Shown here: in pieces, positions 529-48,273 of the stretch | Numbering within the stretch: the first letter of the stretch is position 1 | Layout: every line of letters starts with the position of its first letter | DNA from: a phage | Strand: one strand, 5' to 3' | Sequence record: PZ871096.1 | DNA: 50,355 nt | The notes under the pieces: generated by a model | The model's database searches: none | The model's input: the letters and a program-made list of their open reading frames with translations, nothing else | What the model was told of the DNA's origin: nothing | Translations under genes and position numbers: made by a program

Positions 529-2096
529 TGATCATATGGGAAGATTTGACGGCGGCGCAAAAGCGAGCCATTAAAGAAATCAGTGAGCATTCATTCGAAA
601 AGATGATTAGAATCTGGTTCCAGTTATTGCAGGGGCAAAAATTCCAGAGCAACTGGCATTTTAGCTTATTGTGCAGAGAGGTAGAGAAGATCATCAATGG
701 AGAGTCGCAGAATGTGATTTTCAACATTACGCCAGGTAGCGGTAAGACTGAGATTTTCTCGATCCACATGTCACCCTACGCGTCATTGAAAAGCCGGAAG
801 GTGAGAAATCTTAACCTTTCGTTTAGTGATGGCCTTGTCCAGCAAAACAGCAACCGGATAAAGGAGATTATTGGTTCTCCTGAGTGGCAAGAGCTATGGC
901 CTGGGAAACTGGCAAAGGCGAGCGCTAAAGATCTGATAGTCACCGAAGGCGGCAAGGTTAAATTGCAAGCTAACTCACGTTCTATTGGCGGCCAGGTAAC
1001 AGGTTTGCGTGGCGGCTATATGGACGATGGTTTTACTGGTATGCTGGTTCTTGACGATCCAGACAAGCCGGATGACATGCTTTCTAAGGTTAAGCGTGAG
1101 GCGATCCACATGCGGTTAAAAAACACAGTGCGATCGCGTCGAATGAAAGACACCACGCCGATTGTTATGGTGCAACAGCGACTACACGTTAATGATTCCA
1201 CCTGGTTTATGCTTAATGGCGGGATGGGTGGTATTGAGTTTAAAGTTGTGAGCATTCCGGCGCTGGTTACGGAAGAATACCGCGAAACGCTTCCTGATTG
1301 GTTGAAGCCTGAATTTGATCGTGATGTGCTGTCAAGTAAGCCAGTTATGATAGATGGCGTTGCTCATTATTCATTCTGGCCTGCGAAGGAAAGCGCGGAG
1401 GAGTTGCTCGCATTGCGCAATGCAGATCCTTACACGTTCGCCAGCCAATACCAACAGCAACCAATCGCGCTGGGCGGGAACGTGTTTAAAACAGAGTGGT
1501 TCCAGTATTACGGCAGCGGCGAAAAATGCGCACTACCAAAACCGGATCGCTTTGAATACACATTTATTACTGGAGATACCGCGCAGAAGGCCGGAGAGCT
1601 TAACGACTATTCAGTTTTTTGTTACTGGGGGATGTATAAGAATCGCGTTTACTTCATTGATGGCATTCGCGGAAAGTGGGAAGCGCCGGATCTTGAATTA
1701 AATTTTATTGCCTTCGTTAATCAGTGCTGGAAGCGCAATAAGGAGTGTGGCAGCTTGCGACGTATCCACATTGAGGATAAGGCCAGCGGCACTGGTTTGA
1801 TTCAGGGGGCCAAAAAGAAGATCCCGATTGATATAAATCCCGTTCAGCGAAGCAATGACAAGGTAACGCGAGCAATGGACGCCGCGCCAGTGATGAGGGC
1901 CGGACGTGTGGCGCTGCCAGAAAATCACCCCATGCTGCCTGAGATACTGGCAGAGGTTGCAGCATTCACTTTTGATGATTCTCATCCCCATGATGATATT
2001 GTCGATAATATAGTTGATGCTGTTAACGTCGAAATGAACTTGGCAGATGATCCGGTGGCAAGGATGAAAAAGCTGGCTGGTCTACGCAATAAATAG
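528..2096 (+). CDS. terL: terminase large subunit
   Basis: 522 aa; ATPase and nuclease-type motifs (e.g. GMLVLDDPDKPDD Walker B-like); first gene pair of the packaging module. Confidence 0.85.
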   Translation: MIIWEDLTAAQKRAIKEISEHSFEKMIRIWFQLLQGQKFQSNWHFSLLCREVEKIINGESQNVIFNITPGSGKTEIFSIHMSPYASLKSRKVRNLNLSFSDGLVQQNSNRIKEIIGSPEWQELWPGKLAKASAKDLIVTEGGKVKLQANSRSIGGQVTGLRGGYMDDGFTGMLVLDDPDKPDDMLSKVKREAIHMRLKNTVRSRRMKDTTPIVMVQQRLHVNDSTWFMLNGGMGGIEFKVVSIPALVTEEYRETLPDWLKPEFDRDVLSSKPVMIDGVAHYSFWPAKESAEELLALRNADPYTFASQYQQQPIALGGNVFKTEWFQYYGSGEKCALPKPDRFEYTFITGDTAQKAGELNDYSVFCYWGMYKNRVYFIDGIRGKWEAPDLELNFIAFVNQCWKRNKECGSLRRIHIEDKASGTGLIQGAKKKIPIDINPVQRSNDKVTRAMDAAPVMRAGRVALPENHPMLPEILAEVAAFTFDDSHPHDDIVDNIVDAVNVEMNLADDPVARMKKLAGLRNK

Positions 2097-2123
2097 CACT
2101 AATTGCTAAAAAGTTATATAATC

Positions 2124-16425: not shown

Positions 16426-19400
16426 ATGGCTAAATATATGATAAGCGGCAGTAAGGGAGGCGGTCAAAAGCCCTACGTGCCAAAAGAGATGGAAGATAAC
16501 CTGATCTCGATAAACAAGATTAAAGTTTTGCTGGCTGTATCTGATGGCGAGTGCGATCCAGATTTTACGTTGCGTGATCTTTATCTTGATGATGTTCCGG
16601 TTATTGCCAGCGATGGCACTGTTAACTACGAGGGAGTTACGGCTGAATATAGACCAGGTACGCAGACGCAAGATTACATCCAGGGTTTTACTGACACATC
16701 AAGTGAGGTTACAGTTGCCAGAGATATTACCGGAGACAATCCTTATGTTATTTCTGTTACAAATAAAAACCTATCTGCGGTAAGAATAAAGATCCTGATG
16801 CCAGTAGGCATTAAGCAGGAGGATAACGGCGATCTTGTTGGCGTAAGGGTTGAGTATGCCGTAGATATGGCTGTTGATGGCGGTTCTTATAGCGAGGTTA
16901 TGAGAGATGTAATTGACGGCAAGACAAGATCAGGATACGACCGCAGCAGAAGGATTGATCTTCCTAAGTTTGATGAGCGCGTTTTAATCAGGGTTAAGCG
17001 ACTTACCCCAGACAGCACATCTTCAAAGGTGACTGATAAAATCAAACTGCAAAGTTACGCTGAGGTTGTGGATGCAAAATTCCGTTATCCTCTGACTGGC
17101 CTTGTATTTGTAGAATTTGACAGCGAATTGTTTCCTACACAAATCCCTAACATTTCTATAAAAAAGAAATGGAAGATTATTAATGTGCCAAGCAACTATG
17201 ATCCAATATCAAGAGAATATCACGGGTCATGGGATGGGACTTTTAAAAAAGCGTGGTCAAATAATCCTGCATGGGTTCTTTATGATCTGGTGACGAATCA
17301 GCGTTATGGACTTGACCAGCGAGAGTTAGGAATACAGATCGACAAGTGGAGCTTATACGAGGCAGGCGTTTACTGTGATCAGAAAGTTCCAGACGGTAAG
17401 GGCGGTACAGAGCCTCGCTACCTATGCGATGTGGTGATCCAGAATCAGGTTGAGGCTTATCAGCTAATCCGTGACATTTGCTCAATCTTTCGCGGAATGA
17501 GCTTTTGGAATGGAGAGAGCTTATCAATCGTAATTGATAAACCGCGCGATCCATCATACGTGTTTACTAATGAAAACGTCATCAACGGTGATTTTCAGTA
17601 CACAGCAGCAAGCGAAAAAAGCATGTACACGCAATGTAATGTGACGTTTGACGACGAACAAAACATGTATCAGCAGGACGTAGAGGGGGTTTTTGATACT
17701 GAGGCGGCATTACGATTTGGATACAATCCAACAAGCATTACAGCGATCGGGTGTACACGCAGGAGCGAAGCGAATCGTCGCGGTCGGTGGGTTTTGAAAA
17801 CAAACCTTAGAAGCACTACTGTAAACTTTTCTACCGGACTAGAGGGGATGATTCCATCCATAGGTGATGTGATTGCTATCGCTGATAATTTTCAGAGCAG
17901 CAATCTAACGTTAAATCTTTCGGGCCGAGTAATGGAAGTTTCAGGCTTGCAAGTTTTCGTTCCGTTTAAGGTTGATGCGCGTCCTGGTGATTTTATTATC
18001 ATCAACAAGCCGGACGGAAAGCCAGTTAAGCGAACGATCTCAAAGGTGAGCGCAGACGGAAAAACCATTGAGTTAAATATTGGCTTTGGTTTTGATGTTA
18101 AGCCTGATACTGTTTTTGCGATTGACCGTACTGACCTTGCGTTGCAGCAATACGTTGTGACAACTATCAGCAAGGGTGATGACGAAAACGAGTTTACCTT
18201 TTCAATCACGGCTGTGGAGTACGATCCGAACAAATACGACGAGATTGATTATGGCGTAAACATTGATGACAGGCCAACTTCAATTGTTCAGCCTGACGTG
18301 ATGGCAGCGCCTGAGAATGTTCAGATCTCATCTTATTCTCGTGTCGTGCAGGGTGTTAGCGTTGAAACTATGGTTGTTTCATGGGATAAGGTTCCTTACG
18401 CATCGCTTTATGAAATGCAGTGGCGAAAAGGTGATGGTAACTGGCTGAACACGCCGCAGACCGCTAACAAAGAGATAGAGGTAGAAGGAATTTATTCAGG
18501 CAACTACCAAGTAAGGGTTAGATCTGTTTCTGCAAGTGGGAACACCTCCCCGTGGTCAAAGATTGTAACCGCCACCCTGACAGGTAAAGTTGGCGAGCCA
18601 GGAGCGCCGATTAATCTTACAGCTTCTGATAATGAAGTTTTTGGCATTCGTGTCAAATGGGGTATGCCGGAAGGATCAGGAGATACGGCTTACATTGAGC
18701 TTCACCAATCGCCAGATGGAACGGTGGAAAACTCAAGTTTGCTTACGCTGATCCCGTATCCTCAATATGAGTATTGGCATAGTACGTTACCAGCGGGGAA
18801 AGTTGTATGGTATAGAATCCGTAGCGTTGACAGAATAGGCAACGTTTCCGGCTGGACTGACTTTGTTCGTGGCATGGCGTCAGATGATGTTGAATCTGTT
18901 TTAGGCGACATTCTGGACAAGATTTTTGATACCGAAGCTGGTCAAGAAATCAAAGAGAACGCCATAGACAGTGCCAACAAAATCAAAGACCAGGCGCAAT
19001 CAATCATCCAGAACGCTTTGGCAAATGATTCTGATGTTAGAGTTATGAAAAAGGAGAATGGGAAACGGAAAGCTGAATTTAGGCAATCTATACAGATGAT
19101 TGCTGATGAAACAGAGGCAAGGGTAACAGCGTTAACGCAATTAAAAGCAGAATTTGATGAGGAGATAACTAGCGAAGTAACAAGACTTGATCAGGCGATC
19201 GCAACAGAATCAGAAACGCGAGCAACAGCTATAGAGGAATTAAAATCACAGATTGGTGATGATATTCAGGGGCAGTTAACGAGAGTTGAGGAAGCGATTG
19301 CAAGCGAAACAGAGGCGCGCGTTTCTGCCGATACTGCATTAACGGCAAAGTTTGGTGATCTTGAGTCGGCACTTACTGAAAAACTTGATTCATGGGCTGG

Positions 19401-19851
19401 CGTTGATTCCGTTGGTGCTCAATATTCAATGAAGCTGGGCCTAACCTATAATGGTCAGCAGTACAGCGCCGGAATGGTTATGCAGTTAACGCAATCACCG
19501 CAAGGATTAATATCACAGATTCTGTTTGACGCTAACAGATTCGCGATCATGACAAGTTCTAGCGGCGGGGCATATACGCTTCCTTTCGTGGTTGAGAATA
19601 ACCAGGTTTTCATCAATAGCTTACTTGTGAAAGATGGTTCAATAACTAATGCCATGATTGGAAACTTTATTCAGTCAAACAATTTTGTTCAAAATCAGCA
19701 AGGTTGGAGGCTTGATAAAAACGGAACATTTGAAAACTACGGATCAACTCCAGGAGAGGGAGCTACTAAATTCACCAACGAAGGATTGAAGGTAAAAGAT
19801 GCAAACGGAGTATTGAGGGTTGAAGTCGGAAGGATTACCGGAAGCTGGTAA
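16426..19851 (+). CDS. central tail fibre / host specificity protein (lambda J-like)
   Basis: ORF-track frame 16375-19851; first ATG 16426; >1100 aa with fibronectin-III-like repeats and coiled-coil segment; last gene of tail module. Confidence 0.8.
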   Translation: MAKYMISGSKGGGQKPYVPKEMEDNLISINKIKVLLAVSDGECDPDFTLRDLYLDDVPVIASDGTVNYEGVTAEYRPGTQTQDYIQGFTDTSSEVTVARDITGDNPYVISVTNKNLSAVRIKILMPVGIKQEDNGDLVGVRVEYAVDMAVDGGSYSEVMRDVIDGKTRSGYDRSRRIDLPKFDERVLIRVKRLTPDSTSSKVTDKIKLQSYAEVVDAKFRYPLTGLVFVEFDSELFPTQIPNISIKKKWKIINVPSNYDPISREYHGSWDGTFKKAWSNNPAWVLYDLVTNQRYGLDQRELGIQIDKWSLYEAGVYCDQKVPDGKGGTEPRYLCDVVIQNQVEAYQLIRDICSIFRGMSFWNGESLSIVIDKPRDPSYVFTNENVINGDFQYTAASEKSMYTQCNVTFDDEQNMYQQDVEGVFDTEAALRFGYNPTSITAIGCTRRSEANRRGRWVLKTNLRSTTVNFSTGLEGMIPSIGDVIAIADNFQSSNLTLNLSGRVMEVSGLQVFVPFKVDARPGDFIIINKPDGKPVKRTISKVSADGKTIELNIGFGFDVKPDTVFAIDRTDLALQQYVVTTISKGDDENEFTFSITAVEYDPNKYDEIDYGVNIDDRPTSIVQPDVMAAPENVQISSYSRVVQGVSVETMVVSWDKVPYASLYEMQWRKGDGNWLNTPQTANKEIEVEGIYSGNYQVRVRSVSASGNTSPWSKIVTATLTGKVGEPGAPINLTASDNEVFGIRVKWGMPEGSGDTAYIELHQSPDGTVENSSLLTLIPYPQYEYWHSTLPAGKVVWYRIRSVDRIGNVSGWTDFVRGMASDDVESVLGDILDKIFDTEAGQEIKENAIDSANKIKDQAQSIIQNALANDSDVRVMKKENGKRKAEFRQSIQMIADETEARVTALTQLKAEFDEEITSEVTRLDQAIATESETRATAIEELKSQIGDDIQGQLTRVEEAIASETEARVSADTALTAKFGDLESALTEKLDSWAGVDSVGAQYSMKLGLTYNGQQYSAGMVMQLTQSPQGLISQILFDANRFAIMTSSSGGAYTLPFVVENNQVFINSLLVKDGSITNAMIGNFIQSNNFVQNQQGWRLDKNGTFENYGSTPGEGATKFTNEGLKVKDANGVLRVEVGRITGSW

Positions 19852-19880
19852 AAAAAGGGGGCGTAGCCCCCTTTAATTTT
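19851..19880. terminator. bidirectional intrinsic terminator at convergent junction
   Basis: A6-GGGGGC-gta-GCCCCC-TTTAATTTT. Confidence 0.75.
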
Positions 19881-20493
19881 AATCATAGTGTGATGCATTT
19901 ATAACCAAAACAGATGAAGCGGTGTAAATACCAACAGGTCCAGGGGTTTGTGCAACCTGCCTGGAAAAAGAGTAGATCCCGTTACCATACGCGGCAGCTT
20001 GAGACTCAAAAATCATAAATCCACCTAAAGCCGGATTAGGTACAGAGTTTAACGCTGTTAGTGATGGCATTATTGCGCAAGGGTAGCCCAGGTTAACATC
20101 AAACGCGATCCCGCTCACACCAACTTGCTTTGCATCAAGCGGCCTCATTTTTCCATGATAAACCATTTCACCATGAGCGTTATAAAACGCTATGCCGTGA
20201 CTACCTGGAGGAGTCACCATGTTACTAAAAGCATAAACAATAACCTCCCCTTGATTATCAGATCTATAAATTCTTATTGCGTGCCTTCCACCATTGTTAA
20301 ATTGCGTAAATGATATGTATGATTTAGCAGTCAATCTAACAAAGAAAAAACATACCCTATCAACAGGAATTGACGAAGTAAAAACGGTTCCGGTATTAGC
20401 AGATATTACGGCCCGATCAATTAGATTAACTGGAGTGAAATCTGGACTTAACCATAACGATCCGTCTGGTTTTTTTATGCTCATCCCGTACAT
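19879..20493 (-). CDS. hypothetical Gly/Ser/Tyr-rich protein
   Basis: ORF-track frame 19879-20505 (TTG start); first ATG at 20493 with GGGGGTGA SD; third gene of leftward lipoprotein operon. Confidence 0.5.
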   Translation of the reverse strand: MYGMSIKKPDGSLWLSPDFTPVNLIDRAVISANTGTVFTSSIPVDRVCFFFVRLTAKSYISFTQFNNGGRHAIRIYRSDNQGEVIVYAFSNMVTPPGSHGIAFYNAHGEMVYHGKMRPLDAKQVGVSGIAFDVNLGYPCAIMPSLTALNSVPNPALGGFMIFESQAAAYGNGIYSFSRQVAQTPGPVGIYTASSVLVINASHYD

Positions 20494-20495
20494 TA

Positions 20496-20774
20496 TCACC
20501 CCCAAAAAGTATATATATATCTTGAATCAGATCCAGAAAGTCCACTCCATGTAACGGTGTCGCCACTTACCCCTAAGTTTGGTGCGCCAGGGTCGCCACC
20601 ACGCCAGGAATTCATGCCAACATATATTGCTTTCAATGATTTACCTGGCGGCCTGTTTTGGTAAGTCTTGCTACCTGATGGCTGAGTGAATTTATCAAGG
20701 AAGAAAACAGGCGTTAAAAGTCCTGTAACTTCCCTCCCTCGATCGTCATATATTGCATAACCATATTGCGCCAT
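20496..20774 (-). CDS. hypothetical protein
   Basis: 92 aa; ATG overlaps the lipoprotein stop (TAATG), translational coupling. Confidence 0.5.
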   Translation of the reverse strand: MAQYGYAIYDDRGREVTGLLTPVFFLDKFTQPSGSKTYQNRPPGKSLKAIYVGMNSWRGGDPGAPNLGVSGDTVTWSGLSGSDSRYIYTFWG

Positions 20775-21043
20775 TAATTACACCTCAAATCAATAAATTT
20801 ACTTTCATTTTGCCAGCGGTTGATAAATTTAACTTCTTTATTGTCAACGCTCAACCTGTATTGCTTTTGGCTGAATCTGTTTTCGCGGACTGCATTAATT
20901 TTAACCTCATGGAATCCGTTAACAGGGAATGTTTTAACGTTAAATTTTGCCGTGCAATCGATCTCTTTGAAGCCGCCAGTAGGCGACGCTGCGCATCCGG
21001 TCAGAGCGGCTACGGTGGCGATAACTGCGATTAATTTTTTCAT
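20774..21043 (-). CDS. outer-membrane lipoprotein, candidate superinfection-exclusion protein (Cor/Llp-like)
   Basis: ORF-track frame 20774-21049; ATG 21043 with AAGGAG SD; signal peptide plus lipobox MKKLIAVIATVAALTG|C; placed next to the receptor-binding tail gene as cor/llp are in T1/T5-type phages. Confidence 0.5.
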   Translation of the reverse strand: MKKLIAVIATVAALTGCAASPTGGFKEIDCTAKFNVKTFPVNGFHEVKINAVRENRFSQKQYRLSVDNKEVKFINRWQNESKFIDLRCN

Positions 21044-21074
21044 CTTCAATACTCCTTAGTTGTCGTTGCCTGTA

Positions 21075-21117
21075 ACTATACACGATCCGACAAGCGGCGT
21101 TTAGCAAAAAGTGCTAC
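21075..21117 (-). promoter_or_regulatory. conserved-box promoter (variant box GTAGCACTTTTTGCTAAAC, 18-nt spacer, TATAGT)
   Basis: box at 21099-21117, -10-like hexamer at 21075-21080 (minus strand). Confidence 0.5.
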
Positions 21118-21237
21118 TTGTTATTTTTTGTTTTCCGGTGTTATCGGATTTAAGACGGCGTAAATTTAGCGCAAATTTTAGCCAACATAAGAACAATAAA
21201 TAATCAATAAAATAGATATATACATATAAAATCAATA

Positions 21238-21400
21238 GTTTATTTATTTATGTATGTATATTTGTTTTTTCTTGTTATCTGTGTTTCTTGTGGTTTTGGT
21301 TGTTTGTGGTGATTTTTCTTTCTGAGTATCTGTATGTGCCATCATTCATGTGTATGTATATAATCCGGCGTATCTGAGAGAACAGGGGAACAAGAAAAAT
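21238..21400. repeat. AT-rich TG/TA-repeat element, copy A (homologous to 40737-40990)
   Basis: shared blocks TTATTTATTTAT, GTATGTATAT, TTGTTATCT, TTGTGGTTTTGGT, GTATCTGTATGTG, GGGAACAAGAAAAA. Confidence 0.6.
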
Positions 21401-21486
21401 AACACATATTAATCATTAACTTACGCGTCAAATTTGTTTTGTTGCCATCTGAGAACGTTTAGAAAACAGAAAAAACAAAACAACTA

Positions 21487-21514
21487 TTGACTAAATCAAC
21501 CAAATGGCTACAAT
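21487..21514 (+). promoter_or_regulatory. sigma70-type promoter for exonuclease-ERF-SSB operon
   Basis: TTGACT (21487-21492), 16-nt spacer, TACAAT (21509-21514); SD GAGGAG; ATG 21545. Confidence 0.55.
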
Positions 21515-21544
21515 GCACACACAAAGCAACGAGGAGCATTAAAG

Positions 21545-22600
21545 ATGAGTGATTTTAACGCCTATACTAGCGAAGAAATGAGCAATGAGCTTTATCATGA
21601 TCCTAACGCGTGGACGGCTGAATACGTCAGCGGTTCCAGCCTGGCGGAGATTTACAGCACTTGCCCGGCGTACTGGAAGTACAAGCCTCGCCAGGAAACT
21701 AAGGCACTTGTTTTCGGTACGCAGTCGCATACCAATTTTGAAAGCAAGGAGTTATTCGAAAAAACATATCGCCGCGCACCGTCGCAGGATGACTTTAAAG
21801 ATCTGATTACAAGCCAAACGGCGTTAGCTTCAAAGCTGAAATCTTTTGGCCTGAAAGGTACGACGGGTAAGCAATACCCTGAACTGCTGGAAATGCTGTA
21901 CAAGTGCGGTGAGGATCTCAATGTATGGTGGCTTATCGAAATGATGGCAGAATGCCAGGCCGCAGCGGACGGAGTGCAGTTAATCGACGCGAAAGATTAT
22001 GATGCCTGTGTAGCGATGCGGCGCGTACTTGAGGCAATACCTGAGCATAATGCTTGCATGAATAGCCCAACCGCGCAGCGTGAAATGTCAATATTCGGGA
22101 TCATCAATGGCGTAAAAGTTAAAGTGCGTCTTGATCACGTTGACGTAAACAAGGATGTAAAGGCCACAATCATTAACGGTTACGACGAAAAAGGACGACC
22201 GATTTATGAAGAAGTAATCTATCCAGAAGCTGTGATTATCACTGACTATAAAACAACGGTTAGCGCAAATCCGGTTGACTTCCAGCGCCTGGCTTACAAT
22301 CACGGCTATTATCTAAAAATGGCTTTGCAGCATGATTTATTTAAAAAGGCGTATCCAGACGAGGAAAGGCCAGTAATTGTGAGATTGCTTGCTCAGGAGA
22401 AGAAAGAGCCTTACTTGCCGCTCGCATTCCGCATGAACATTGAGCAATTGAAGATCGGGCGTATCCAGTACATGAGCGTGATCAACAAGTTCAACGTTTG
22501 CCAACAGTTAGATGAATGGCCTTCGTATGCAAACGGACAACCAGAAATTGATCTTGATACTCATGATTGGGTTCGTGCTCAATTCAGGCAGTATCTATGA
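21545..22600 (+). CDS. PD-(D/E)XK exonuclease (RecE / exonuclease VIII-like)
   Basis: 351 aa; D...DYKT-type nuclease motif (AVIITDYKTT); followed by an annealing protein gene. Confidence 0.6.
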   Translation: MSDFNAYTSEEMSNELYHDPNAWTAEYVSGSSLAEIYSTCPAYWKYKPRQETKALVFGTQSHTNFESKELFEKTYRRAPSQDDFKDLITSQTALASKLKSFGLKGTTGKQYPELLEMLYKCGEDLNVWWLIEMMAECQAAADGVQLIDAKDYDACVAMRRVLEAIPEHNACMNSPTAQREMSIFGIINGVKVKVRLDHVDVNKDVKATIINGYDEKGRPIYEEVIYPEAVIITDYKTTVSANPVDFQRLAYNHGYYLKMALQHDLFKKAYPDEERPVIVRLLAQEKKEPYLPLAFRMNIEQLKIGRIQYMSVINKFNVCQQLDEWPSYANGQPEIDLDTHDWVRAQFRQYL

Positions 22601-29648: not shown

Positions 29649-30067
29649 TGGCTATAACTGATAAAGGCGATTATCTTGAGTTTTACGAAAGGGATCCAAC
29701 CGACACGAGAAGGGAAGTTAATCACCAGATAGATAGTTTTCAGTGGTTGACTTATGCTCATCCTTATTTGCTGGCGTGGCATACGGTAAACGAGAATGAG
29801 AAGTCTAAAGTAACGGCGATGATTGATCAGCAGTCCGGCTTGGTTAAGGGAGTAAGCGATTTCATCATCCTGATTGGTTTAAACGGAAAATACCCCTTTG
29901 CAGCGATTGAGATCAAACGAGTGAATAAATCAGGCAAGGGGAAAGCATCACCAGTCAGCGATGAGCAAAAGGCTTTTTTGCGTCGCGTTCGCAGCTTAGG
30001 AGGATTCGCTGCGGTAGCCTACGGATTCAATCAGTTTAAGTTGGCTATTGAATACATGCTTAAATAG
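29648..30067 (+). CDS. VRR-NUC domain nuclease
   Basis: 139 aa; GVSDFIIL...AAIEIK...SPVSDEQ matches the VRR-NUC PD-(D/E)XK signature. Confidence 0.65.
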   Translation: MAITDKGDYLEFYERDPTDTRREVNHQIDSFQWLTYAHPYLLAWHTVNENEKSKVTAMIDQQSGLVKGVSDFIILIGLNGKYPFAAIEIKRVNKSGKGKASPVSDEQKAFLRRVRSLGGFAAVAYGFNQFKLAIEYMLK

Positions 30068-30107
30068 CACTTTTTGTTAAAACTGGCGCGATGGATTGCG
30101 CCATAAT
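30064..30107 (+). promoter_or_regulatory. conserved-box promoter
   Basis: ATAGCACTTTTTGTTAAAAC, 18-nt inverted-repeat spacer (GGCGC...GCGCC), CATAAT. Confidence 0.5.
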
Positions 30108-37186: not shown

Positions 37187-37230
37187 ATTATGCCAGGTTT
37201 TTACACCTGGCTTTTAACAAAAAGTGCTAT
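37187..37230 (-). promoter_or_regulatory. conserved-box promoter
   Basis: minus strand ATAGCACTTTTTGTTAAAAG, hairpin spacer GCCAGG...CCTGGC, CATAAT. Confidence 0.5.
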
Positions 37231-40736: not shown

Positions 40737-40990
40737 GATTATTTATTTATATGTATCTATATATTCTCTTTTGTTATCTTGGTTATTGTGGTATTTGGTG
40801 GGGGTATATAGTTTTTGTGTATCTGTATGTGTGTGTGGGTATGTATGGGCATATATATCTATATGGCACTTTCCGCGAGAAAACTTCGATAACAGGCAAT
40901 GATAACATTGATTTATAAGGAAAAATAACGCCCATATTGTTATTGTGCCACCATATAAAATTGATAAAACACGCGGGAACAAGAAAAAAC
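40737..40990. repeat. AT-rich TG/TA-repeat element, copy B (homologous to 21238-21400)
   Basis: same blocks as copy A in the same order, same strand. Confidence 0.6.
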
Positions 40991-45137: not shown

Positions 45138-45437
45138 ATGTTAGTACGCAATGCGATTTATAAATTCACAAACGAGATGGGGGTTCACCTTTACCACGTA
45201 AACCATCAAGGCAACACCTCAATCGCGATGTATCGCGACGCTCGCGGGAAGTGTAGGCCTTCTCTGCGTGGCAGAATTTCTCCTGCGTTCTTCATGTTTA
45301 GATGGCATGCAACAGAACAAAGCAACCATAACCATTGGAATAAAGTATTGATTGCAGGAGGCCGAATTGTTGCCAGTCACGTAGTCGATCCGCGCAAACT
45401 AACCAGCCGCCAGCTTCGCAAAATGGCGCGCAAATAG
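45138..45437 (+). CDS. hypothetical basic protein
   Basis: 99 aa ORF. Confidence 0.45.
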   Translation: MLVRNAIYKFTNEMGVHLYHVNHQGNTSIAMYRDARGKCRPSLRGRISPAFFMFRWHATEQSNHNHWNKVLIAGGRIVASHVVDPRKLTSRQLRKMARK

Positions 45438-45477
45438 CACTTTTTGTTAAAATCAACTTTACGGCCTGCGGTATAGT
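45434..45477 (+). promoter_or_regulatory. conserved-box promoter
   Basis: ATAGCACTTTTTGTTAAAAT, hairpin GGCCT...AGGCC with TATAGT in loop. Confidence 0.5.
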
Positions 45478-45772: not shown

Positions 45773-45954
45773 TTTGGTTACTTGCTTTTTTGGTTGTTTT
45801 TCTTTACATTTCAGGCTTGTTTACGTTTCGCGCGTTGGTGAAATATTCTGACGCGACAGACAAAGACGATAAAATCGTTCTCGCTTTCTGGTTTGTTTGG
45901 GTGTGGTTAGCAATTTACGAGATCATCAGAGACAAACAGAAATTTGAGTGGTGA
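45769..45954 (+). CDS. small membrane protein (two predicted TM helices)
   Basis: 61 aa; hydrophobic segments LLAFLVVFLYISGLF and IVLAFWFVWVWLAIY. Confidence 0.45.
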   Translation: MIWLLAFLVVFLYISGLFTFRALVKYSDATDKDDKIVLAFWFVWVWLAIYEIIRDKQKFEW

Positions 45955-48230: not shown

Positions 48231-48273
48231 TAGCACTTTTTGTTAAAACTTCCGCAAGGGCATTTGATAAAGT
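48230..48273 (+). promoter_or_regulatory. conserved-box promoter
   Basis: ATAGCACTTTTTGTTAAAAC, hairpin AAGGGCA...TGCCCTT, TAAAGT at fixed offset. Confidence 0.45.

What the first reader, a model, noticed from the sequence alone, without database searches (positions are those of the whole stretch)
19879..21117. Three-gene leftward operon (lipoprotein and two Gly/Ser/Tyr-rich proteins) convergent with the J-like gene
Seen directly: box promoter (21075-21117), lipoprotein with canonical lipobox (20774-21043), and two translationally coupled downstream ORFs (overlaps TAATG, and TGA-2nt-ATG), ending at a bidirectional terminator shared with J. Established knowledge: T1/phi80 cor and T5 llp encode lipoproteins that inactivate the phage receptor and sit next to receptor-binding genes. 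The two co-transcribed partners are not part of the known single-gene cor/llp arrangement.
Basis: partly seen in the sequence, partly recalled or inferred. Interest (0 to 1): 0.45.

Follow-up and report, generated by a model that had tools for sequence, protein, structure and literature searches.

The report
BtuB receptor-recognition cassette of T1-like phage
This is the already described three-gene cassette next to the tail-tip gene of a T1-like coliphage that most likely encodes the two-part protein the phage uses to grip the BtuB outer-membrane receptor, plus a small lipoprotein that probably masks that receptor once the cell is infected; it is ordinary for this phage group.

Summary
Three translationally coupled minus-strand genes (lipoprotein 89 aa, then 92 aa, then 204 aa) run from a repeated "box" promoter to a bidirectional terminator shared with the J-like gene.

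The locus is 99% identical to phage FritzSarasin (Bas04), whose terminal receptor is BtuB. It is the published "receptor-specificity (RBP) locus" downstream of gpJ.

The two partner genes are not new additions to a single-gene cor arrangement. They fall in the same two PHROG families as T1 ST32/ST31, N15 gp22/gp23 and phi80 gp22/gp23, which sit beside cor in those phages.

- The 92-aa and 204-aa families occur fused in one polypeptide elsewhere, so they probably act as one two-part adhesin.
- The lipoprotein sits exactly in the cor slot. It shares promoter, leader and signal peptide with cor of a FhuA-using sister phage; only the mature part differs. Sequence similarity of the mature part to Cor is weak.

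Verdict: already known locus; gene-level functions are inferred, not shown.

The parts
16426..19851 (+). J-like central tail fibre / tail-tip gene. Its C-terminal tip is the presumed docking site for the RBP.
   Evidence: ORF; annotated as a J-like tail tip protein in FritzSarasin. Identity to the FhuA-type sister phage drops from 91% to 74% over 19336-19864. The last 60 aa are alike in FhuA and BtuB types and different in the LptD type.
19854..19874 (.). Bidirectional intrinsic terminator shared by J (+) and the leftward operon (-).
   Evidence: GC hairpin with T7 on the minus strand and a T-rich tail on the plus strand.
19879..20493 (-). 204-aa protein, the probable BtuB-binding receptor-binding protein (phrog_425).
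20496..20774 (-). 92-aa protein, partner or adaptor subunit of the RBP (phrog_557).
20774..21043 (-). 89-aa outer-membrane lipoprotein in the cor slot, a probable superinfection-exclusion factor for BtuB.
   Evidence: Lipobox. Promoter, leader and signal peptide are shared with cor of PeterMerian, and the mature part is swapped. Mature family vs Cor family by hhalign: E = 0.002, 0 of 150 column shuffles reach the score. The phage-database homologues with a determined or predicted receptor are in BtuB-type phages (Bas04, Bas06; PTXU06/Zar3M group predicted).
21075..21117 (-). Box-type promoter: box at 21100-21116, -10-like TATAGT at 21080-21075.
   Evidence: 17 exact copies of the box in the window vs 0.04 expected. 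Same architecture as other copies upstream of genes. A near-identical promoter lies upstream of cor in PeterMerian.

Best explanation
The region is the BtuB allele of the receptor-specificity cassette that small siphoviruses carry directly downstream of their J-like tail-tip gene.

Proposed mechanism:
1. The 204-aa protein is the receptor-binding protein. It recognises the extracellular face of the TonB-dependent vitamin B12 transporter BtuB.
2. The 92-aa protein is its obligatory partner, most likely a virion subunit linking the RBP to the C-terminal tip of J.
3. The 89-aa lipoprotein is exported, lipidated and sent to the inner leaflet of the outer membrane. There it binds BtuB from the periplasmic side and makes it unusable for this RBP. 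This gives superinfection exclusion and protects progeny from adsorbing to debris, as Llp does for FhuA and Rtp45 does for LptD.
4. All three genes are made from one box-type promoter as a translationally coupled operon that ends at the terminator shared with J.

Shown here: gene structure; identity with the locus of a BtuB-dependent phage; family membership of the two partners; fold similarity of the 204-aa protein to a solved RBP; fusion of the two partner families elsewhere; and replacement of the mature cor domain in an otherwise conserved cor slot.

Inferred: BtuB binding by the 204-aa protein; virion location of the 92-aa protein; and the exclusion activity and binding site of the lipoprotein.
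For: Locus identity:
- 99.1% nucleotide identity to FritzSarasin/Bas04 over 19700-21300. Bas04's terminal receptor is BtuB (PMC8594841 S5 table).
- KarlJaspers/Bas06 (BtuB) and Dhillonvirus Zar3M have the same three-gene leftward layout.
- The literature describes this position as the RBP plus exclusion-factor locus.

204-aa protein:
- High-confidence model.
- Weak cross-hits to the Oekolampad family: phrog_1265 E = 0.013 for the window protein and 4e-5 for the BRET homologue.
- A local profile match with an offset of 117, which makes the two C-termini coincide.

Layout precedent: in Oekolampad the order is exclusion lipoprotein, then RBP, on the strand opposite J. Rtp45 is shown to be an exclusion lipoprotein binding LptD at the periplasmic interface of the outer membrane (10.1101/2025.07.07.663478).

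Partner protein:
- phrog_557 plus phrog_425 fusions of 309-322 aa, found downstream of a J-like C-terminus and next to a Cor-like lipoprotein.
- The pair is conserved in T1, N15, phi80, SSL-2009a, PeterMerian, BRET and 933W.

Lipoprotein:
- Sits in the cor slot, with the recombination junction just after the lipobox.
- The signal peptide follows the phage genus and the mature part follows the receptor.
- Collinear Cys...Cys/YR/W architecture shared with Cor.
- Stand-alone homologues in Grimontviridae show that it can act without the pair.
Against: - No experiment on this allele. BtuB binding by the 204-aa protein and exclusion by the lipoprotein are untested.
- Foldseek against the PDB did not list 9rpt among its first 50 matches and gave no hit at E <= 0.001. 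Profile-profile similarity to the Oekolampad RBP is only local (E = 0.004; E = 0.2).
- The PHROG Cor hit of the lipoprotein (E = 1e-7) vanishes when the signal peptide is removed. hhalign probability is only about 5%.
- The 92-aa model is of middling confidence and has no significant structural neighbour. No similarity to the N-terminus of the single-chain RBP was found.
- Structural genes behind the cor promoter, rather than in the J operon as in T1, is an unusual regulatory arrangement. The timing of the box promoters is unknown.
Confidence: 0.72

Rival explanations
1. All three proteins form one superinfection-exclusion or membrane system. On this view the 92- and 204-aa proteins are envelope-associated helpers of the Cor-like lipoprotein. 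This is the first reader's leaning and the assumption made for the T1 homologues in PMC13164509.
For: - Co-transcription and translational coupling with the lipoprotein gene.
- The KanT1 paper found no structural hits and assumed a role in exclusion.
Against: - Neither protein has a signal peptide or a hydrophobic segment.
- In T1, N15, phi80, SSL-2009a and PeterMerian the homologous pair is co-directional with J, and in T1-type phages it is on the opposite strand from cor.
- The 204-aa model matches a solved receptor-binding protein.
- The pair occurs without any lipoprotein in BRET and 933W, and the lipoprotein occurs without the pair.
Confidence: 0.08
2. The 204-aa protein is the RBP, but the 92-aa protein is a non-structural assembly chaperone, like tail-fibre assembly proteins, rather than an adaptor subunit in the virion.
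For: - Small size, and a position immediately upstream of the RBP gene with translational coupling.
- The solved Oekolampad RBP binds its receptor as a single chain.
- The 2026 preprint calls such neighbours 'accessory proteins'.
Against: - Covalent fusions of the two families in 309-322-aa proteins argue for a permanent complex.
- The last 60 aa of J are conserved between FhuA and BtuB types, which share the small-protein family, but differ in the single-chain LptD type.
- The small and large proteins share an N-terminal YG-x-x-I-x-D-x-x-G motif.
Confidence: 0.18
3. The lipoprotein is an unrelated moron or lysis-type lipoprotein (for example spanin-like) and does not act on BtuB.
For: - The mature domain has no significant Pfam, PHROG or PDB sequence match.
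- Homologues in Grimontviridae lie among early genes far from tail genes.
Against: - It occupies the cor slot with a shared promoter and signal peptide.
- Among E. coli siphoviruses it co-occurs with the BtuB-type pair in the three loci inspected, from three genera. The two of those phages with a measured receptor use BtuB.
- The Cys pattern and collinear similarity to Cor exceed shuffled controls.
- The equivalent genes at FhuA- and LptD-type loci are proven exclusion factors.
Confidence: 0.05

Closest known systems
BtuB-type 'bona fide RBP locus' of Drexlerviridae and Dhillonvirus (Bas04 FritzSarasin, Bas06 KarlJaspers, PTXU06/Zar3M), from Maffei et al. 2021 (PMC8594841) and the 2026 receptor-prediction preprint
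   Same: Same position, same three genes, same order and strand. 99% nucleotide identity to Bas04. The proteins are 53-65% identical to those of Bas06 and Zar3M.
   Different: Nothing substantive. The window is another isolate of the same species-level group.
cor cassette of T1 (ST32-ST31 plus cor ST30), N15 (gp22-gp23-cor), phi80, HK022, ES18 (FhuA type)
   Same: The same two partner families (phrog_557, phrog_425) and a lipoprotein in the same slot, downstream of J. The same promoter and signal peptide as cor of PeterMerian.
   Different: The receptor is FhuA rather than BtuB. Pairwise identity of the partner proteins is only about 24-31%. In T1-type phages the pair is co-directional with J and cor stands alone on the opposite strand. 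In N15 and phi80 all three are co-directional with J. Here all three are convergent with J. The mature lipoprotein is only marginally similar to Cor.
Oekolampad (Bas18) / Rtp LptD-type locus: RBP bas18_0025/Rtp44 plus exclusion lipoprotein bas18_0026/Rtp45 (PDB 9rpt)
   Different: The Oekolampad RBP is a single 321-aa chain (phrog_1265), not a 92 + 204 pair. There is no significant sequence similarity. The J tip differs. The receptor is LptD, which is not a TonB-dependent transporter. The exclusion lipoprotein belongs to a different family (phrog_4281).
T5 pb5 / Llp (FhuA), and the Cor-like lipoproteins that PMC13164509 reports in BtuB-using Markadamsvirinae (T5 relatives)
   Same: Functional logic: a dedicated RBP gene lies next to a small lipoprotein that inactivates the same TonB-dependent transporter from the periplasmic side.
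   Different: No sequence relationship was found. tblastn with the lipoprotein returned no record named as a T5 relative, and there was no PDB sequence match. The genomic location and RBP fold family are different.

Membership tests
Receptor-specificity (RBP) locus of small siphoviruses, BtuB allele | Located directly downstream of the gpJ homologue | tested here: met
   The operon ends 27 nt from the J stop, at a shared terminator.
Receptor-specificity (RBP) locus of small siphoviruses, BtuB allele | Sequence identity with loci of phages whose BtuB dependence was determined experimentally | tested here: met
   99.1% nucleotide identity to Bas04. Bas04 and Bas06 are BtuB-dependent. Same gene set in Bas06.
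Receptor-specificity (RBP) locus of small siphoviruses, BtuB allele | The phage actually uses BtuB; the 204-aa protein binds BtuB | not testable with these tools
   Requires plating on a btuB mutant and binding assays.
phrog_425 / phrog_557 pair (T1 ST31/ST32, N15 gp23/gp22) | Profile match over the full length of both proteins, adjacent genes in small-then-large order | tested here: met
   E = 4e-49 and 4e-20. T1, 933W and BRET homologues hit the same profiles.
Oekolampad-type RBP fold (PDB 9rpt chain C, phrog_1265) | Shared three-dimensional fold | tested here: inconclusive
Cor superinfection-exclusion lipoproteins (phrog_1119) | Sec/SPII signal peptide with lipobox; small mature domain | tested here: met
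   MKKLIAVIATVAALTG|C, with a mature part of 73 aa.
Cor superinfection-exclusion lipoproteins (phrog_1119) | Sequence homology of the mature domain | tested here: inconclusive
   The full-length hit (E = 1e-7) is lost without the signal peptide. Family-vs-family hhalign gives E = 0.002, probability 6%, with 0 of 150 column shuffles reaching the score. The two Cys, a YR motif and a W align.
Cor superinfection-exclusion lipoproteins (phrog_1119) | Same genomic slot as cor | tested here: met
   Promoter, leader and signal-peptide codons are shared with cor of PeterMerian. Homology resumes at window 20990.
Cor superinfection-exclusion lipoproteins (phrog_1119) | Excludes phages by inactivating their outer-membrane receptor | not testable with these tools
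   Needs an expression and plating experiment.
T5 Llp | Sequence or fold similarity to Llp (PDB 8A60) | tested here: not met
   No Llp chain was recovered by phmmer against PDB sequences at E <= 10.

The most novel reading that the evidence does not exclude
The 92-aa and 204-aa proteins are the two chains of a split adhesin.
- The small chain docks on a J tip that is conserved between FhuA- and BtuB-type phages.
- The large chain is the equivalent of residues ~118-321 of the single-chain LptD-binding RBP.
- Both chains use the same N-terminal YG-x-x-I-x-D-x-x-G hairpin for assembly.

The FhuA, BtuB and LptD RBP families have been called unrelated. On this reading they would be one ancient fold family that exists in split and fused forms. 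The same split module in 933W-type Stx podophages (L0126/L0127, 44-50% identical) would then be an unrecognised receptor-binding device of those phages.
Probability: 0.3. Interest if true: 0.45.

Novelty: already known. Interest (0 to 1): 0.2.

Why it matters
The locus decides which outer-membrane protein the phage uses, and the literature describes frequent horizontal exchange of these RBP loci; here, sister phages differ within boundaries that run from the 3' end of J to just past the lipobox codon. Knowing which gene is the adhesin, which is its partner and which is the matching receptor mask helps in predicting receptor use from genomes and in engineering receptor switches. For this window, however, the cassette is a near-identical copy of one already mapped to BtuB. 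The value here lies in correcting the reading: the partner genes are the adhesin, not additions to cor. A few gene-level inferences are also added, namely the fold link to the solved LptD-binding RBP, the fused homologues, and the junction after the lipobox.

Tried and rejected
- Pfam scan of all three proteins: nothing above threshold.
- PDB sequence searches with the lipoprotein, the 204-aa family profile and T1 Cor: no meaningful hits.
- Foldseek of the 204-aa model against the PDB: only weak PCSK9 C-terminal-domain matches with TM about 0.27, and 9rpt not listed.
- hhalign of the 92-aa family against the full Oekolampad RBP or its N-terminal 130 residues: not significant, E 0.12-0.41. The idea that the small protein equals the N-terminal domain of the single-chain RBP is therefore not supported by sequence.
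- PHROG scan of the mature lipoprotein: no Cor hit. I do not file it as a Cor family member.
- The search for related loci in viral contigs with single proteins returned only close relatives.
- Literature searches for a description of the box promoter and for virion proteomics of the partner proteins gave nothing usable.
- Rfam: no RNA family in 19500-21600.
- I considered using the box promoter to infer early timing and rejected it. A box copy also stands at 2094, the only plus-strand copy upstream of the J gene, so the motif gives no basis for assigning timing.

Full report
**What is there**

- An 89-aa ORF (20774-21043) starts MKKLIAVIATVAALTGC. This is a textbook lipoprotein signal peptide with lipobox L-T-G-C and Ala at +2. 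It is preceded by AAGGAG at an 8-nt spacing.
- Its TAA overlaps the ATG of a 92-aa ORF (20496-20774; TAATG).
- The TGA of the 92-aa ORF is followed after 2 nt by the ATG of a 204-aa ORF (19879-20493).
- Five nt past that stop lies the hairpin AAAGGGGGC-TAC-GCCCCCTTT (19854-19874), with a T7 run on the minus strand. On the plus strand it sits 2 nt after the stop of the 1141-aa J-like gene (16426-19851).
- Upstream of the lipoprotein gene, TAGCACTTTTTGCTAAA (21100-21116) is one of 17 exact copies of TAGCACnnnTTGnnAAA in the window, against 0.04 expected.
- Most copies share an architecture: box, about 18 nt that is often a GC hairpin, a cATAAT/TATAGT hexamer, a conserved leader, SD and ATG.
- The spacing between the TTGnTA of the box and the -10-like hexamer is 21-22 nt, and the sigma-70 scan does not call these sites. 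They are therefore a phage-specific promoter class by inference, not by demonstration.
- No Rfam family lies in the region.

**Which phage and which locus**

The 1.6-kb stretch is 99.1% identical to Escherichia phage FritzSarasin (Bas04; Drexlerviridae, Tempevirinae, Warwickvirus) and 95-99% identical to some 45 other records.
- In the BASEL study, the genes directly downstream of the gpJ homologue were defined as the 'bona fide RBP locus'. [quoted passage not shown]
- Bas04's terminal receptor is BtuB.
- KarlJaspers (Bas06, another genus, BtuB) and the Dhillonvirus Zar3M carry the same three genes in the same order and orientation.
- A 2026 preprint confirms the correlation in 101 siphoviruses. 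[quoted passage not shown]

The finding is thus a copy of a described locus.

**The two 'partner' genes are the known neighbours of cor**

The 92-aa protein matches phrog_557 (E = 4e-20) and the 204-aa protein matches phrog_425 (E = 4e-49).
- T1 ST32/ST31, 933W L0126/L0127 and BRET_22/21 hit the same two profiles.
- N15 gp22/gp23, phi80 gp22/gp23 and SSL-2009a gp25/gp26 sit in the same position beside cor; the phi80 and SSL-2009a pairs carry the two PHROG product names.
- The three-gene cor cassette of T1, HK022, N15, ES18 and phi80 is described in PMC13164509.
- What differs is the layout. In N15 and phi80 all three genes follow J on the same strand. In T1, SSL-2009a and PeterMerian the pair follows J and cor is convergent. 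In the BtuB allele the pair is inverted and lies behind the lipoprotein gene.
- That last layout is the same as in the LptD-type locus of Oekolampad, where the order is exclusion lipoprotein bas18_0026 then RBP bas18_0025, convergent with J.

**What the 204-aa protein is**

It has no signal peptide and no hydrophobic segment, which does not fit the PHROG label 'membrane associated'.
- With a 28-sequence alignment, AlphaFold2 gives an all-beta model with pLDDT 89.7 and pTM 0.85. Only residues 1-20 are uncertain.
- Sequence signals are faint but point the same way. Cross-hits to the Oekolampad family phrog_1265 have E = 0.013 for the window protein and 4e-5 for the BRET homologue. A local profile-profile match has E = 0.004, and its offset of 117 residues makes the C-termini of the 204-aa and 321-aa proteins coincide.
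- Against this, Foldseek did not return 9rpt.

I take the 204-aa protein to be the receptor-binding protein. Because the allele tracks BtuB, I take it to be the BtuB binder. The binding itself is inferred.

**What the 92-aa protein is**

Its model is a small beta-sandwich of middling confidence (pLDDT 70) without a significant structural neighbour.
- The informative result came from the exhaustive profile search with the 204-aa family. Among 125 hits, about a dozen are proteins of 309-325 aa in which the match starts near residue 95-110.
- Three of the four tested carry phrog_557 at the N-terminus and phrog_425 behind it; the fourth (P0082) hit phrog_425 only.
- One such fused gene lies right after a J-like C-terminus and before a convergent Cor-like lipoprotein gene.
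- Gene fusion of the two families argues that they work as one physical unit.
- Both proteins, and the Oekolampad RBP, begin with a similar YG-x-x-I-x-D-x-x-G motif, which recurs inside the large protein.
- The last 60 residues of J are alike in FhuA- and BtuB-type phages (55-83% identity) but unrelated in the LptD type (28-32%). This holds even within one genus whose upstream J sequence is 88% identical.
- The simplest reading is J tip, then small subunit, then large receptor-binding subunit. A chaperone role for the small protein remains possible.
- I could not show that the small protein corresponds to the N-terminal third of the single-chain RBP.

**What the lipoprotein is**

The PHROG Cor hit (E = 1e-7) is carried by the signal peptide and disappears for the mature 73 residues. 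BLASTP against T1 Cor aligns only residues 1-34.

Three other lines support an exclusion role.
1. Slot. Against PeterMerian (same genus, FhuA), DNA homology runs through J, weakens over its last 500 nt, is lost at the J stop and resumes at window 20990. That is right after the Cys17-Ala18 codons, and homology continues through the leader and the box promoter. In PeterMerian that promoter drives a typical Cor.
2. Signal peptides. In Dhillonvirus, the BtuB-type (Zar3M), FhuA-type (SSL-2009a Cor) and LptD-type (Oekolampad) lipoproteins all begin MKTLIMICAVLLSGC. In T1-like phages, T1 Cor and LptD-type exclusion proteins all begin MKKLITIIAAAFILTGC. These are alleles of one gene position.
3. Architecture. 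The mature BtuB-type family and the Cor family share a collinear pattern: lipid Cys, 7-13 residues, Cys, a beta-rich stretch with YR and W[VQI], and a Cys 1-3 residues from the end. hhalign of mature parts gives E = 0.002, with a score of 18.0 against 4.0 +/- 2.5 for column shuffles (0 of 150), although the probability is only about 6%.

Two further observations bear on this.
- Homologues at 29-30% identity stand alone in Grimontviridae phages of Proteus and Cronobacter, so the protein does not need the pair.
- The counterparts at the other alleles are established exclusion lipoproteins that bind the receptor from the periplasmic side. Llp acts on FhuA by allostery, and Rtp45 acts on LptD by displacing loops (10.1101/2025.07.07.663478). 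BtuB is a TonB-dependent transporter like FhuA.

[quoted passage not shown] This is inference. I do not file the protein as a Cor family member.

**Comparison, novelty, verdict**

The cassette is the BtuB allele of a known, horizontally exchanged host-recognition module, in a phage nearly identical to published isolates, so it is already known.

Points that go slightly beyond the papers I read:
- the fold link between the BtuB/FhuA-type large protein and the solved LptD-binding RBP, families that the preprint calls unrelated;
- the existence of fused small-plus-large proteins;
- the recombination junction placed just after the lipobox.

None of these is surprising to a specialist, and all need experiments.

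Noticed in passing
window, 17 sites, e.g. 2094-2110(+), 30065-30081(+), 37213-37229(-), 45435-45451(+), 48231-48247(+): A 'box' motif TAGCACnnnTTGnnAAA occurs 17 times exactly, against 0.04 expected. It is usually followed by about 18 nt that often form a GC hairpin, a cATAAT/TATAGT hexamer and a conserved leader (CATCGAcAAC...AGGA). The spacing from the TTGTTA of the box to the -10 is 21-22 nt, so it is not a canonical sigma-70 promoter. What recognises the box is unknown. Two copies (6719, 10472) point against the local gene direction.
   Followed up: partly
window 21240-21319 and 40739-40799 (also 45777-45812): AT-rich, T/G-skewed repeats (TTATTTATTTAT...TTGTTATCT...GTGGT) lie in the 430-nt divergent intergenic region between the lipoprotein operon and the exonuclease gene. 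A related copy lies about 19.5 kb away (families D6 and D11). Function unknown.
   Followed up: no
L002 (phage 933W) 5768-6618; Short-tailed Stx-converting phages (933W L0126/L0127, VT2-Sakai and others) carry the small-plus-large pair at 44-50% identity to the window pair. This is closer than the T1 pair (about 24-31%). They have no J-like gene and no adjacent lipoprotein. The pair lies between large tail-region ORFs and lom.
   Followed up: partly
L021 4001-4276 (Proteus phage J3S), L022 4001-4276 (Cronobacter phage vB_CsaP_009): Homologues of the BtuB-type lipoprotein (29-30% identity, same Cys pattern) stand alone among small early genes of ~90-kb Grimontviridae phages, far from tail genes.
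   Followed up: partly
L027 276-1226, L028 1228-2196 (metagenomic contigs): Single polypeptides of 316-322 aa fuse the phrog_557 and phrog_425 families. In L027 the fused gene follows a J-like C-terminus and is followed by a convergent Cor-like lipoprotein gene, then a tail fibre gene and a Caudo_TAP gene.
   Followed up: yes
L018, L020, L025, L004, L015-L017 (lipoprotein genes): The signal peptides of the exclusion-slot lipoproteins are identical within a phage genus regardless of receptor type (MKTLIMICAVLLSGC in Dhillonvirus; MKKLITIIAAAFILTGC in T1-like phages). The mature parts are unrelated between receptor types. This implies recombination junctions at the lipobox.
   Followed up: yes
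GenBank records MG065643, MG065649, MG065657, MG065680, MG065681: Records named 'Campylobacter phage' (all 49,946 bp, host given as C. jejuni) carry this coliphage BtuB-type cassette at 53-72% protein identity. They look like T1-like coliphages with a doubtful host label.
   Followed up: no
window 19227-19864 (3' end of J): Identity to the FhuA-type sister phage PeterMerian falls from 91% to 74% over the last ~500 nt of J, with a gap at 19227-19335. The left boundary of the exchangeable module therefore lies inside J.
   Followed up: partly
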